A program made the translations under genes and the position numbers. From Escherichia phage Bf23, in the sequence record NC_042564.1: a stretch of 14,504 nucleotides of DNA; one strand, given 5' to 3'. Below, piece after piece: positions 2,490-14,447 of the stretch. The notes under the pieces were generated by a model, which saw nothing but the letters and a program-made list of their open reading frames with translations, was not told where the DNA came from and did not search any database. The first letter of the stretch is position 1. Every line of letters starts with the position of its first letter.

Positions 2490-2726
2490 TTAACTAGACA
2501 CTGGTTCTGCTGGCTGAGATACGGCAGGCTGTTCTAATGTATCTGGTGCTGATACAGAGAAAAGAGCTTGTAATGCTGCAATATCACGCTCGTAAGTTTC
2601 AATACGAGTAGTAAGAGTATCTACCATCTGTTTATGATAGGCTAAGTTATTCTGAGATTCATCTCGAAGAGTTTGCAGTTCTGCAAGACGTGTTAACATA
2701 ATTTCACTAATTAAAGCATTACTCAT
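2490..2726 (-). CDS. hypothetical coiled-coil protein, 78 aa
   Basis: ORF track; ATG with AGGAGA SD; start overlaps stop of 2719-2916 (coupled). Confidence 0.5.
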   Translation of the reverse strand: MSNALISEIMLTRLAELQTLRDESQNNLAYHKQMVDTLTTRIETYERDIAALQALFSVSAPDTLEQPAVSQPAEPVSS

Positions 2727-2916
2727 TTGTTTCTCCTAAATTTTCCGGTTCTTCTAAACGTTTGCCTTCATGATCTACTCGAATAACTCCGCATCCTTCG
2801 CAAACCACAACTGCACCATAACCTTCTTTGACTTCGGCTTCTGTAATCAGACCAGATAAGTCACCAGTATCTCTGCCCCACATATCAATGGAGCATTGTT
2901 TGCAGAAATCAGCCAT
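2719..2916 (-). CDS. hypothetical zinc-ribbon-like protein (two CxxC pairs), 65 aa
   Basis: ORF track; ATG at 2914-2916 with AGGAAA SD; CKQC ... CEGC motif. Confidence 0.55.
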   Translation of the reverse strand: MADFCKQCSIDMWGRDTGDLSGLITEAEVKEGYGAVVVCEGCGVIRVDHEGKRLEEPENLGETNE

Positions 2917-2941: not shown

Positions 2942-3018
2942 TGGGGTGGCTAGTGGAATTCGAATCCACATAGGCCTGATTCACAATCAGGATCATTAAC
3001 CAATTATGATATAGCCAC
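2942..3018 (-). tRNA. tRNA-His (anticodon GTG)
   Basis: encoded CCA, C73 discriminator, perfect T-arm gtgga/attcgaa/tccac, perfect anticodon stem cctga/tcagg with loop TTGTGAA, perfect acceptor 2946-2952/3012-3018. Confidence 0.8.
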
Positions 3019-3132
3019 AATTGAAAACTCGCAGGGTTAGCGAAACCATCCTCAATTAGCATGTTCTAGAATACTAATCAAGTTATCTCCTATTGCACGC
3101 AGCTCAAGACGAGTACGAATTTTCAATTGTGG
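3015..3132 (-). ncRNA. candidate structured RNA / precursor-processing stem flanking the 5' end of tRNA-His
   Basis: 17-nt inverted repeat ccacaattgaaaactcg (3015-3031) vs cgaattttcaattgtgg (3116-3132), one mismatch, enclosing 84 nt with no credible ORF; the first arm includes the first 4 nt of tRNA-His. Confidence 0.3.
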
Positions 3133-3247
3133 CGGCTCTCAGAAACTCTTCTATTCTAGCCCCAGAAGCTTACCCCCGAACGCCTGTCGGGAAAGTCTTT
3201 CCAAGAGCATCAAATAGCACCGTTACACTTTGAGCCATTGATATATC

Positions 3248-3332
3248 AAGGAACAGAAGGATTTGAACCTTCACGAGATAGACCATTTATCTCAACCGCT
3301 TTTAAGGTATATTTCTAGGAGTGGATGTTCCT
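3248..3332 (-). tRNA. tRNA-like gene, class II length (85 nt), isotype undetermined (possible Leu-TAA) or pseudogene
   Basis: perfect T-arm gaagg/atttgaa/ccttc and perfect 7-bp acceptor (3249-3255/3326-3332) but no canonical anticodon stem; CCA not encoded; contains hairpin agata/gaccatt/tatct. Confidence 0.35.
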
Positions 3333-3386
3333 AGTAAACCTATTCGGCAGTCCCGTCTACCAATTCCGGCATATTCCAAGAATTTT

Positions 3387-3560
3387 TTATAAACCAGCAG
3401 AAGCCTCATTTAAAGCATCAACAATAGCTTCACGCTGGGTCATTCCATACCCGGTGGAGTCTAGGTGAGGCAAATAGGCTGCCCACCCATTATCTGTTTC
3501 ATGAAGGAATGCTTTAAATTTTTTACCGTCCTTCATTGTTACAGTAACTGTTTTGCTCAT
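3387..3560 (-). CDS. small ORF (57 aa), possibly HicB/UPF0150-like fold
   Basis: ATG at 3558-3560 with AAGGAA SD; translation ...ETDNGWAAYLPHLDSTGYGMTQREAIVDALNEASAGL resembles the HicB N-terminal domain pattern; below ORF-track size cut-off. Confidence 0.4.
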   Translation of the reverse strand: MSKTVTVTMKDGKKFKAFLHETDNGWAAYLPHLDSTGYGMTQREAIVDALNEASAGL

Positions 3561-4036: not shown

Positions 4037-4062
4037 AAATTCTTTAGTTTACTAAGGCTATT

Positions 4063-4230
4063 AGCTCGGCGTAACTATAGCACCTTCGCTTCGAGCGGAA
4101 GGAACTACGTCATCTCGCAAACCCGATACACTATTCAGTTGCCGCTGAATCTAGTGGACTAATCTAGAACCTCTCCCAAATCGTAGGGATCGTGCTTTTT
4201 GGCAGCCAGTCCTAGGTCGAGCTAATACCT
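4063..4230 (-). ncRNA. candidate structured RNA in promoter-proximal leader (no ORF)
   Basis: long-range inverted repeat ggctattagctcgg (4063-4076) vs gtcgagctaatacc (4217-4230) enclosing about 140 nt with internal hairpins (ttcag/ctgaa 4133-4148; ctag/ctag); no ORF with RBS. Confidence 0.3.
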
Positions 4231-4274
4231 TAGTGAACTATGATGAGGATTTCCCCTCATCAATTTATATAAAT

Positions 4275-5345: not shown

Positions 5346-5372
5346 ATGAATTTTTAATAAATTTACTTATTG

Positions 5373-5472
5373 TGTAGGCCACCTGGGGGCTATCAACCCC
5401 ACGGCTGACAAAGAAGTTTGCGAGACTTCTCTTAAAAGCCAGAATAGACCCGCCGATCTATCGGAACCTACA
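5373..5472 (-). ncRNA. tRNA-like cloverleaf element (about 100 nt), noncanonical; strand uncertain
   Basis: outer stem tgtagg(5373-5378)/cctaca(5467-5472) enclosing three hairpins: ggggg/cccc (5385-5400), agaagt/acttct with 7-nt loop (5412-5430), ccga/tcgg (5453-5464); no TTCGA T-loop, no CCA. Confidence 0.3.
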
Positions 5473-5620
5473 TAATAAGTAAACTTTCGTTTACTTACAC
5501 CTACTTGGTCAGGAGGATTTTCAGCGACTAGAACCGGCCGGAAACTTATCGCCTTGTTTTACTACCACCTTACGGACGCACAAGTTGTTACACGAATGCG
5601 CAAGCTCGGTTTGGTAGATT

Positions 5621-9872: not shown

Positions 9873-9950
9873 TGGTGGCTCCCCGAGGATTCGAACCTAC
9901 GTACCTTCCAGTTATGAGCTGGGTGCTCATACCATATGAGCTTGAGAACC
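9873..9950 (-). tRNA. tRNA with anticodon CAT (Met, initiator or Ile2 type)
   Basis: encoded CCA, acceptor 9877-9883/9944-9950 with two G-U, D-arm gctc/gagc, anticodon loop CTCATAA; T-stem has only 3 good pairs. Confidence 0.5.
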
Positions 9951-13650: not shown

Positions 13651-14152
13651 TTTAAGTATTTTTAAGAACTCTCGTAAAAACTCTTAAAAATACAGACGAT
13701 ACCGGGAGAGTCATAAGTCTCACTCATTAAGTATTTCAAGACAAAATACAGTAACGTCTATTATTTTCCAGTTTAAGTCAAGGTGACTTAGTGGTTATGT
13801 CCTGCGGTATGCTGAGGACTCGGTTAGGCTAGGGTCATGACTCCCCACCTTTTTGCTGCTACTCAACAGGAGTTATCGCGAATTACCTGTGCTATTGTGC
13901 ACCATTAGTGGCATCTCTCATGCCAGCATTTCCCACTTTGTGGATAGTTTGAAAAACTACTCCGATATGGAGAAAGAACTTCACTATCCTAGAATACCTT
14001 CTAAAGTTCTTCTTTAGCCTGGACATAGTTAAATCGTAATAAAACTATTCAGCAGACTGGTTGGTTAGTCTGGAACCAACTACCGCGTGGTTTAGGCAGT
14101 GCGCAACTAACCTCGGAAGCTTTTACGTTAAAAGCATCAGTTATCCAGTTCT

Positions 14153-14224
14153 TACCGTCCGTAGGATTCGAACCTACATCTTCCACCAGTTACGGCTTGA
14201 TAATACCAATTATACTAGGACGGC
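14153..14224 (-). tRNA. tRNA-like gene, isotype undetermined (possible pseudogene)
   Basis: perfect T-arm gtagg/attcgaa/cctac (14161-14177) and 6-7 bp acceptor pairing (14154-14160/14218-14224) but no recognizable anticodon stem; CCA not encoded. Confidence 0.35.
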
Positions 14225-14447
14225 AGTGTTACTACATAAGTGATTTCCACACCCCACTATTTATAAATTAGAGAAGAGTTTAGGGGAGAGGTTTCAGACG
14301 CCCCATTTTATACGTTCTAGCCACTAACCGGGATTGCCGCCCCCTGTGTACTAGTTTTACAACTAACCCACCGACTCTATTCAGTGCACTCCGGTTGGGA
14401 TTCTGCACTCAGCGTAATCGGCTCGCTGTTCCCTAATTTATGAATAT

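What the first reader, a model, noticed from the sequence alone, without database searches (positions are those of the whole stretch)
3015..3132. 17-nt inverted repeat pairing the 5' end of tRNA-His with upstream sequence
ccacaattgaaaactcg and its near-perfect reverse complement lie 84 nt apart with no ORF between. In the minus-strand precursor this would sequester the first nucleotides of tRNA-His in a long helix, a plausible RNase III or RNase P regulatory or processing structure, or the stem of a small RNA.
Basis: seen in the sequence. Interest (0 to 1): 0.5.

Follow-up and report, generated by a model that had tools for sequence, protein, structure and literature searches.

The report
Closing stem of phage T5 RNAIII
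The inverted repeat is real and is the closing stem of a small stable RNA (RNAIII) already annotated in phage T5. In the uncut transcript the stem extends to about 20 base pairs that hold the first bases of tRNA-His, and relatives keep that length while swapping the RNA's interior, which suggests a cutting site for the host's double-strand RNA nuclease.

Summary
Arms 3014-3031 and 3116-3133 are 17/18 complementary with 84 nt between them. This is the longest such repeat in the window, and none of 60 resampled sequences matched it.

On the minus-strand RNA the single mismatch is a U·G wobble, and the helix runs 20 bp (3014-3033 / 3114-3133).

The window is the BF23/T5 tRNA cluster. The repeat is the terminal stem of annotated T5 'RNAIII' (3020-3125, minus strand, 100% identical to T5). 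It extends 6-8 bp further, into the tRNA-His 5' end and the CCA end of the neighbouring RNAI.

Comparison across 18 distinct arm sequences from Tequintavirus, Epseptimavirus, Sugarlandvirus and Erwinia phage KEY shows:
- The apical insert ranges from a 4-nt loop to about 150 nt of unrelated sequence.
- The helix stays 19-21 bp and always covers the tRNA-His 5' end.
- 13 of 22 tested positions changed on both sides, and positions 21-22 are unpaired.
- Its G·U pairs work only on the transcribed strand.

The annotated RNAIII ends lie inside the helix with a 2-nt 3' overhang. Two other T5 stable RNAs, RNAIV and RNA2H, are built the same way.

Best reading: an RNase III-type excision stem that releases RNAIII and frees tRNA-His. 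The enzyme is inferred, not shown. The element itself is already known.

The parts
3114..3133 (-). 5' arm of the 20-bp precursor helix (RNA GCCACAAUUGAAAAUUCGUA). It comprises the last 4 nt of RNAI (GCCA, 3133-3130), the 4-nt spacer CAAU (3129-3126) and the first 12 nt of RNAIII (3125-3114).
3014..3033 (-). 3' arm of the helix (RNA UGCGAGUUUUCAAUUGUGGC). It comprises the last 14 nt of RNAIII (3033-3020), the -1 U (3019) and tRNA-His nt 1-5, GUGGC (3018-3014).
3020..3125 (-). RNAIII, 106 nt, a 'stable RNA with unknown functions'. It is 100% identical to the T5 rnaIII feature. The predicted fold is a 12-bp closing stem with a 2-nt 3' overhang and three apical hairpins.
3126..3129 (-). 4-nt spacer CAAU between the RNAI CCA end and the RNAIII 5' end. 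In the model it is what 3' exonucleases remove after the cut.
   Evidence: annotation; the trimming step is inference
3130..3236 (-). RNAI, 107 nt. It has a 5-bp acceptor-like terminal stem (GGCUC/GAGCC) and a single-stranded GCCA 3' tail. In the precursor fold that stem abuts the 20-bp helix.
2942..3018 (-). tRNA-His (GUG). The acceptor stem GUGGCUA/UAGCCAC and C73 match the host tRNA-His, and CCA is encoded. The -1 nucleotide (3019) is U, not G.
3237..3380 (-). RNA1, a tRNA-like stable RNA directly upstream in the same transcription unit.
5359..5486 (-). Analogous element: RNAIV (5371-5473) enclosed by a 22-position closing helix (arms 5359-5380 / 5465-5486). The helix continues 12-13 nt beyond the annotated mature ends.
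4045..4240 (-). Analogous element: RNA2H (4056-4227) enclosed by a closing helix of about 23 positions (arms about 4045-4069 / 4218-4240). The helix continues about 11 bp beyond the annotated ends.

Best explanation
The repeat is the closing helix of the known T5/BF23 stable RNA 'RNAIII'. RNAIII lies inside a polycistronic transcript that reads RNA1 - RNAI - RNAIII - tRNA-His on the minus strand.

In the uncut transcript the helix is 20 bp long. Its outer 8 bp are formed by the GCCA end of RNAI plus the spacer CAAU on one strand. The other strand supplies the last two nucleotides of RNAIII, U(-1) and tRNA-His nucleotides 1-5.

The most likely mechanism has four steps:
1. The helix forms during transcription, before the 3' strand of the tRNA-His acceptor stem exists.
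2. Host RNase III makes a staggered double cut inside it, at 3126|3125 and 3020|3019. This releases RNAIII as a closed, exonuclease-resistant stem-loop with a 12-bp stem and a 2-nt 3' overhang.
3. The cut leaves RNAI with four extra 3' nucleotides, which are trimmed back to CCA.
4. The remaining 6-bp duplex falls apart, so the tRNA-His acceptor stem can form. RNase P then finishes the 5' end, or U(-1) is kept.

What selection maintains is the roughly 20-bp stem anchored in the tRNA-His 5' end. The apical body of RNAIII is replaceable.

Shown: the identity of the element, the helix, its conservation and covariation, and its strand specificity. Inferred: the order of events and the enzyme.
For: Identity:
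- The window is 99.8% identical to BF23 and 99.3-99.5% to T5.
- T5 rnaIII maps to 3020-3125 at 100% identity.
- T5, phage 5 and DT571/2 records annotate rnaIII between rnaI and tRNA-His.

One transcription unit:
- T5 annotates no promoter between P13b and P11.
- The scan finds no promoter-like site on the minus strand between RNA1 and tRNA-His.

Helix:
- The minimum-energy folds of 2942-3140 and 2942-3236 contain 20 continuous pairs; z = -5.2 for the shorter construct.
- Forcing the tRNA-His cloverleaf costs +8.9 kcal/mol.

Selection on the RNA helix:
- The first 45 loci gave 23 distinct slot sequences in four apical insert types, A to D. These are found in 281, 55, 65 and 15 phage records respectively.
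- Further relatives added a bare hairpin in phage S124, a Sugarlandvirus form and phage KEY.
- In every case the stem is 19-21 bp in one register and stops sharply.
- In the arms-only alignment of 18 distinct rows, 89.9% of cells pair, against 32-47% when the partner is slid by 1-3 columns.
- 13 of the 22 tested positions changed on both sides; 0 of 500 shuffles reached that.
- Positions 21-22 are unpaired.
- The 1-3 G·U pairs per helix become C·A mismatches on the opposite strand.
- In phage KEY and the Klebsiella phages the pairs that overlap the tRNA change together with the tRNA sequence.
- S124 lacks any RNAIII body yet keeps 19 stacked positions capped by a GCAA loop.

RNase III fit:
- E. 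coli RNase III accommodates about 22 bp and makes double cuts that leave 2-nt 3' overhangs (PMC6212723).
- At least 11 bp are needed between the cut and the helix end (PMC1540722). Here there are 12.
- The annotated RNAIII ends give exactly a 2-nt 3' overhang.
- The 4-nt gap after the RNAI CCA is what a cut followed by 3' trimming predicts.
- RNAIV and RNA2H have the same design. Their 22-23-position helices continue 11-13 nt past the annotated ends, which are staggered with 3' overhangs.
- In RNA2H the 3-nt overhang comes with a bulge, the pattern reported for most 'distance 3' sites.

Precedent: RNase III takes part in T4 tRNA maturation and cuts the stems of rRNA operons (PMC4810235).
Against: - No cleavage or rnc-dependence data for T5 were found in the paper library.
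- I could not establish how the annotated ends were mapped. The RNAIII 3' end abuts the annotated tRNA-His start, so it may have been set by analogy with an 8-bp tRNA-His acceptor stem rather than measured.
- The two base pairs between the proposed cuts are A-U and U-A. In vivo E. coli sites usually have at least one G-C there.
- The published scoring matrix was not available, so the site could not be scored.
- The RNAIV overhang is 1 nt, not 2.
- In the Klebsiella phages the tRNA start sits 2 nt differently relative to the helix. A cut measured from the apical end would leave a 3-nt leader there, so RNase P is still needed.
- Nearest-neighbour energies ignore tRNA tertiary structure and modification.
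Confidence: 0.6

Rival explanations
1. The helix is only the structural closing stem of a functional small RNA. On this view RNase P makes the RNAIII 3' end by cutting at the tRNA-His 5' end. A single-strand endonuclease such as RNase E, followed by exonuclease trimming that stalls at the stem, makes the other ends. The extension into tRNA-His and RNAI is incidental.
For: - The RNAIII 3' end coincides with the annotated tRNA-His start.
- RNAI has an acceptor-like stem and a GCCA tail typical of RNase P and 3'-trimming substrates.
- The A-U/U-A pairs between the proposed cuts are atypical for RNase III.
- 3' trimming up to a stable stem commonly leaves short overhangs (general knowledge).
Against: - The outer 6-8 bp lie outside mature RNAIII, yet they are conserved and covary with the tRNA sequence in KEY and the Klebsiella phages.
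- Total helix length, 19-21 bp, is what stays constant. It persists in S124, where no RNAIII body remains.
- The RNAIII 5' end lies inside a perfect duplex, which a single-strand-specific nuclease cannot easily reach. E. coli has no 5' exonuclease (general knowledge).
- RNAIV and RNA2H show the same ends-inside-a-long-helix geometry away from any tRNA.
Confidence: 0.22
2. The helix is mainly regulatory. By holding tRNA-His nt 1-5 it delays or throttles RNase P maturation, setting the timing or yield of tRNA-His. It may also define which 5' nucleotide the tRNA keeps.
For: - The predicted precursor fold excludes the tRNA-His acceptor stem by about 9 kcal/mol.
- The helix covers the tRNA 5' end in every lineage examined, including KEY, where no RNAI partner exists.
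- The phage tRNA-His has U rather than the host's G at -1.
Against: - The overlap with the tRNA is 5 nt in T5-type phages but only 2 nt in the Klebsiella phages, so the degree of sequestration is not conserved.
- RNAIV and RNA2H have the same helices without an adjacent tRNA 5' end.
- This reading does not exclude the processing model; it could be a consequence of it.
Confidence: 0.1
3. The repeat acts at the DNA level, as terminal inverted repeats of a mobile or recombining cassette, or as a cruciform or nuclease target. That would explain why the interior is swapped between phages.
For: - The interior occurs in several unrelated forms between constant arms that contain the palindrome CAATTG.
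- The region is rich in HNH homing endonuclease genes in T5.
Against: - Each cassette type occurs at one place per genome, and only at this locus.
- No empty site appeared among the best matches of a chimeric junction query.
- The variable part of the helix contains G·U pairs that are C·A mismatches on the other strand, so complementarity is maintained for the transcript and not for the DNA.
- Compensatory changes keep pairing rather than sequence.
Confidence: 0.05
4. The structure is an intrinsic terminator or attenuator upstream of tRNA-His.
For: The consensus scan flags a 5-bp hairpin at 3044-3028 on the minus strand, followed by TTTTCAATTG.
Against: - The run is only four U and is itself base-paired within the long helix.
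- tRNA-His follows immediately and has no promoter of its own.
- Four terminator-like hits were found against 1.8 ± 1.4 expected by chance in that region.
- The feature is not kept in the other cassette types.
Confidence: 0.03

Closest known systems
Bacteriophage T5 stable RNA 'RNAIII' (rnaIII, T5s01; also annotated in Salmonella phage 5 and phage DT571/2)
   Same: The sequence is identical over all 106 nt. The position (between rnaI and tRNA-His), the strand and the neighbours are the same.
   Different: Nothing differs; it is this element. The records give only 'stable RNA with unknown functions'. They say nothing about the helix extending into tRNA-His and RNAI, or about variation of the insert among relatives.
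RNase III processing stems of E. coli rRNA operons, which flank 16S and 23S rRNA, and RNase III involvement in phage T4 tRNA-cluster maturation
   Same: Sequences on both sides of a stable RNA pair into a helix of about two turns within a polycistronic stable-RNA transcript. A staggered double cut releases the enclosed RNA and separates its neighbours (PMC4810235; PMC6212723).
   Different: Here the enclosed RNA is about 100 nt or less, and in S124 only a tetraloop. One strand of the stem is the 5' end of a tRNA. The excised piece has no known function. RNase III dependence is untested.
Phage T7 R1.1-type RNase III hairpin sites and the minimal substrate µR1.1
   Same: At least 11 bp lie between the cut and the apical end, and the products carry a 2-nt 3' overhang. 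The S124 form, about 11 stacked positions plus a GCAA tetraloop above the predicted cut, resembles µR1.1 in size.
   Different: T7 sites lie between mRNAs and are often cut on one strand at an internal loop. The proximal and distal box sequence rules could not be scored here.
Other T5 stable RNAs, RNAIV and RNA2H, in the same window
   Same: Each has a closing helix of 22-23 positions that continues 11-13 nt beyond the annotated mature ends, and the ends are staggered with a 3' overhang.
   Different: Their helices carry one mismatch or a bulge, and they do not overlap a tRNA.

Membership tests
T5 stable RNA III (rnaIII) | Sequence identity to the annotated T5 rnaIII feature | tested here: met
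   106/106 identical at window 3020-3125.
T5 stable RNA III (rnaIII) | Location between rnaI and tRNA-His on the same strand within the tRNA cluster | tested here: met
T5 stable RNA III (rnaIII) | Accumulates as a discrete stable RNA in infected cells | not testable with these tools
   Only the words 'stable RNA' in the GenBank annotation are available. The primary papers are not in the library.
E. coli RNase III double-cleavage substrate | Quasi-continuous helix of about two turns (about 20-22 bp) | tested here: met
   20 continuous pairs here, and 19-21 in all relatives.
E. coli RNase III double-cleavage substrate | Product ends staggered with a 2-nt 3' overhang | tested here: inconclusive
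   The annotated RNAIII ends (5' end 3125 pairs with 3022; 3' end 3020) give exactly 2 nt. How the ends were determined could not be verified.
E. coli RNase III double-cleavage substrate | [quoted passage not shown] | tested here: met
   12 bp (pairs 9-20) here. The criterion comes from PMC1540722.
E. coli RNase III double-cleavage substrate | The two pairs between the cuts are paired and usually include a G-C | tested here: not met
   Both positions are paired, but as A-U and U-A (3127:3020 and 3126:3021). The preference is reported. It is a tendency, not an absolute rule.
E. coli RNase III double-cleavage substrate | Cleavage depends on rnc in vivo or on purified RNase III in vitro | not testable with these tools
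   This needs an experiment.
tRNA / tRNA-like RNA (Rfam RF00005), asked of RNAIII itself | Match to the tRNA covariance model | tested here: not met
   No hit for 3020-3125 even at E ≤ 10; only RNA1 (3248-3378) scores, at 25.9 bits. ARAGORN finds nothing there.
Intrinsic terminator | G+C-rich hairpin followed by a U tract that ends transcripts | tested here: not met
   Only a 5-bp hairpin followed by four U that pair within the long helix. tRNA-His lies immediately downstream and has no promoter of its own.
MITE-like or mobile cassette with terminal inverted repeats | Several copies per genome, or copies at other loci | tested here: not met
   Each cassette type occurs at one place per record, and only at this locus.

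The most novel reading that the evidence does not exclude
The unit under selection is a ruler-length (about 20 bp) RNase III stem anchored in the 5' end of tRNA-His. 'RNAIII' is whatever occupies its apical slot.

At least six forms exist, from a GCAA tetraloop to about 150 nt. Phages would therefore use processing stems as exchangeable slots that produce lineage-specific, exonuclease-protected small RNAs. These could be payloads, for example decoys against host defences.

In T5-type phages the same cut would leave tRNA-His with a 5'-phosphorylated U(-1). That would stand in for the G(-1) that the host obtains from an unusual RNase P cut and that HisRS uses as an identity element.
Probability: 0.2. 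Interest if true: 0.55.

Novelty: already known. Interest (0 to 1): 0.33.

Why it matters
The element itself is an RNA catalogued decades ago, so the finding adds no new gene.

The comparison adds a concrete, testable account of why T5-type phages make 'stable RNAs of unknown function'. At least three of them (RNAIII, RNAIV, RNA2H) look like the excised tops of two-turn processing stems in long tRNA/mRNA co-transcripts. For RNAIII, evolution keeps the stem and its grip on the tRNA-His 5' end while freely replacing the top.

If RNase III dependence is confirmed, three things follow:
- It would explain how these mosaic tRNA clusters are cut up.
- It would give a rule for finding such processing sites in other phage tRNA clusters.
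- It would raise the question of how a tRNA-His with no encoded G(-1) is matured and charged in E. coli.

Tried and rejected
- **Rfam.** At gathering thresholds over the window, and at E ≤ 10 over 3010-3400, there is no family for RNAIII or RNAI.
- **Literature.** Searches for how the T5 RNAIII ends were mapped, or for RNase III work on T5, found nothing usable. One search failed on term length.
- **BF23 record.** The BF23 tRNA-region record NC_042564 is not in the collections.
- **RNase III scoring matrix.** Supplementary Table S4 of PMC6212723 is not held, so the site could not be scored.
- **Metagenome scan.** The 18-mer junction pattern gave mostly chance hits and added only about 8 T5-like loci.
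- **Distant neighbour-gene relatives.** Distant relatives of the neighbouring 65-aa protein (window 2719-2916, minus strand) are not in tRNA clusters and gave no information. The same scan did deliver S124 and a Klebsiella-type contig.
- **Klebsiella phage KNP2.** This Vequintavirinae phage has a similar tRNA-His but no such helix.
- **Phage tRNA-His against E. coli genomes.** BLAST gave no match. The host gene was instead confirmed with its own sequence.
- **Empty site.** A chimeric query for RNAI joined directly to tRNA-His found no single-piece match among the best hits. This check was not exhaustive.
- **tRNA origin for RNAIII.** Types A and D share a hairpin with the 7-nt loop UUCGCUA next to the 3' arm, but no tRNA-model support exists, so a tRNA origin is not claimed.
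- **Covariation inside type A.** The one informative substitution in the central hairpin breaks a pair, so the internal fold of RNAIII is not supported by comparison.

Full report
**What is there**

The window is the tRNA-gene region of a T5-type phage. A 601-bp stretch around the finding is 99.8% identical to phage BF23 and 99.3-99.5% to T5. ARAGORN and Rfam find 23 tRNA genes, all on the minus strand.

The inverted repeat exists as described. The arms are 3014-3031 and 3116-3133: 18 nt, 17/18 complementary, 84 nt apart. It is the longest repeat of its kind in the window. In 60 Markov resamples the longest repeat was 15 nt.

tRNA-His occupies 2942-3018 on the minus strand, so its first five nucleotides and the preceding U (3019) lie in one arm.

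**What it is**

The T5 RefSeq record, the T5 st0 record, the Salmonella phage 5 tRNA-region record and DT571/2 all annotate three 'stable RNAs' directly upstream of tRNA-His. Mapped to the window they are:
- RNAIII: 3020-3125, 100% identical to T5.
- RNAI: 3130-3236.
- RNA1: 3237-3380.

The two arms are therefore the two ends of RNAIII. Alone, RNAIII folds into a 12-bp closing stem with a 2-nt 3' overhang and three apical hairpins (-29.7 kcal/mol, z = -2.9).

In the precursor the stem continues outward for eight more pairs, giving 20 continuous pairs (3014-3033 / 3114-3133). On the 5' strand the outer part is the GCCA end of RNAI plus the spacer CAAU. On the 3' strand it is the last two nucleotides of RNAIII, U(-1), and GUGGC of tRNA-His.

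T5 annotates no promoter between P13b and P11, and the scan finds none on the minus strand here. These RNAs therefore belong to one transcript. Neither RNAIII nor RNAI matches any Rfam family.

**Competition with the tRNA fold**

The minimum-energy fold of RNAI-RNAIII-tRNA-His (-99.1 kcal/mol) has the 20-bp helix abutting the acceptor-like stem of RNAI. It has no tRNA-His acceptor stem. Forcing the cloverleaf costs 8.9 kcal/mol.

After a cut at the annotated ends, the leftover 6-bp duplex (-10.8 kcal/mol, between two molecules) is no stronger than the acceptor stem (-10.6 kcal/mol, within one molecule). These are model energies and ignore tRNA tertiary structure.

**Comparative evidence**

I collected this slot from GenBank phages, IMG/VR and metagenomes.

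*The insert varies widely.* In Tequinta- and Epseptimaviruses the flanks GAGCCGCCACAAUUGA ... UCAAUUGUGGCUAUA are constant, but the interior comes in at least four forms:

| Type | Example | Size | Phage records |
|---|---|---|---|
| A | T5 and this window | 84 nt between the repeat arms | 281 |
| B | chee158 | about 113 nt | 55 |
| C | S114 | about 55 nt | 65 |
| D | TrudiGerster | about 125 nt | 15 |

Each type occurs once per genome, and only at this locus. A and D share some similarity at their ends, so they are not fully independent.

*More distant relatives keep the helix too:*
- Salmonella phage S124 has no RNAIII body at all. The slot is a 42-nt hairpin of 14 bp, one mismatch, 4 bp and a GCAA loop.
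- Klebsiella Sugarlandviruses have a different tRNA-His (GGGAUAU...) and a different RNAI end. They still form a 19-bp helix between the RNAI CCA end and the tRNA 5' end.
- Erwinia phage KEY lacks an RNAI-type partner. It still has a 20-bp helix covering tRNA-His nt 1-5.

*The pairing is maintained by selection.* In an arms-only alignment of 18 distinct sequences:
- 89.9% of cells pair, against 32-47% when the partner strand is slid by 1-3 columns.
- 13 of the 22 tested positions changed on both sides; 0 of 500 shuffles reached that.
- Four of those pairs lie in the part that is invariant among T5-type phages. One of them tracks a C5-to-U change in the tRNA.
- Positions 21 and 22 are unpaired in nearly all sequences, so the helix ends sharply at 19-21 bp.

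*The pairing is specific to the transcribed strand.* Each helix has one to three G·U pairs, and these would be C·A mismatches in the complementary strand. The constraint therefore acts on the minus-strand RNA, not on the DNA.

**Mechanism**

A helix held at about two turns whatever it encloses points to E. coli RNase III.
- The enzyme accommodates about 22 bp and makes staggered double cuts with 2-nt 3' overhangs (PMC6212723).
- It needs at least 11 bp between the cut and the helix end (PMC1540722).
- The annotated RNAIII ends fit. The 5' nucleotide 3125 pairs with 3022 and the 3' end is 3020, which gives 2 nt. Twelve pairs lie above the cut.
- The four nucleotides between the RNAI CCA and the RNAIII 5' end are what 3' trimming after such a cut would remove.

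Two other annotated stable RNAs in the window have the same build. RNAIV (5371-5473) and RNA2H (4056-4227) have closing helices of 22-23 positions that continue 11-13 nt past the annotated ends. Their ends are staggered with 3' overhangs, and the helices are conserved in relatives.

RNase III is already known to act in T4 tRNA maturation and at the stems of rRNA operons (PMC4810235).

**Caveats**

- I found no experimental mapping or rnc data for T5.
- The RNAIII 3' end may have been set by the annotators from the tRNA-His boundary rather than measured.
- The two pairs between the proposed cuts are A-U and U-A, whereas in vivo sites usually include a G-C.
- The RNAIV overhang is 1 nt.
- The published scoring matrix was not available.
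- In the Klebsiella phages the tRNA start is shifted by 2 nt relative to the helix, so RNase P must still finish the 5' end there.

My confidence by sub-claim:

| Claim | Confidence |
|---|---|
| Identity as RNAIII | about 0.97 |
| RNA-level selection on the helix | about 0.9 |
| RNase III as the enzyme | about 0.55-0.6 |

**Rivals**

- *A purely structural stem, with ends made by RNase P, RNase E and exonucleases.* This does not explain why the outer pairs, which lie outside mature RNAIII, are conserved and covary. It also does not explain why S124 keeps the stem with no RNA body.
- *A DNA-level or mobile-cassette role.* The cassettes are single-copy, and the G·U asymmetry argues against it.
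- *A terminator.* Only four paired U follow the hairpin, and a promoterless tRNA lies immediately downstream.
- *A regulatory role in holding back tRNA-His maturation.* This is compatible with the processing model and may be its consequence.

**Verdict**

The element is an already annotated RNA, so novelty is low.

The added value is the comparative result. A roughly 20-bp stem anchored in the tRNA-His 5' end is conserved across four groups of T5-like phages, while its apical insert is exchangeable. That gives a specific, testable processing model for T5's 'stable RNAs of unknown function'.

Noticed in passing
window 3019 and 2942-3018 (-): The phage tRNA-His has the same acceptor stem (GUGGCUA/UAGCCAC) and C73 as E. 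coli tRNA-His, but U instead of G at -1. The host gene encodes G(-1) in all 5426 complete E. coli genomes. U(-1) is invariant in T5-type relatives because it pairs within the helix. How this tRNA gets the extra 5' nucleotide that HisRS normally needs is unclear.
   Followed up: partly
window 5359-5486 (-) and 4045-4240 (-): RNAIV (5371-5473) and RNA2H (4056-4227) are each enclosed by a helix of 22-23 positions that runs 11-13 nt beyond the annotated mature ends. This is the same design as RNAIII, and it is conserved in relatives.
   Followed up: partly
window 3248-3378 (-): RNA1 gives a sub-threshold tRNA match (25.9 bits against a cut-off of 29). It has intact acceptor, D and T arms, a 47-nt insertion in the anticodon loop and a long variable arm. 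It looks like a tRNA-like RNA with an interrupted anticodon loop.
   Followed up: no
window 3130-3236 (-); L005-L008, L137: RNAI is also modular. Its ends (GGCUCAAAG.GUAACGGUGC ... GAGUUUC.GAGAGCCGCCA) are constant, but the central roughly 60 nt come in two unrelated versions among relatives. The terminal 5-bp stem plus GCCA tail looks like a tRNA acceptor end.
   Followed up: no
window 9876-9950 (-): Rfam finds a tRNA (38.2 bits) that ARAGORN misses, next to tRNA-Ser(GCU). By position it corresponds to T5 tRNA-Ile2(CAU).
   Followed up: no
window 14152-14225 (-), within 13651-14277: ARAGORN calls a 'tRNA-Ser' with the odd anticodon ACT, and Rfam scores it 39.6 bits. It lies inside the region homologous to T5 'RNAX', a 719-nt stable RNA of unknown function directly upstream of tRNA-Arg.
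   Followed up: no
L006 932-1117 (phage TrudiGerster); also L196 209-328: Short 'hypothetical protein' CDSs are annotated across the RNAIII-slot cassette, and in TrudiGerster also across RNAI. They are probably spurious calls over non-coding RNA genes.
   Followed up: no
window 3028-3047 (-); cassette D in L006 and L018: Cassette types A and D share a hairpin next to the 3' arm with the same 7-nt loop, UUCGCUA. The 3-bp stem differs on both sides (GGU/ACC against GAG/CUC). Type B and the Klebsiella/KEY inserts share another hairpin, GGAGG.CUGAUCA.CCC. The 'unrelated' inserts may therefore share a conserved 3' module.
   Followed up: partly
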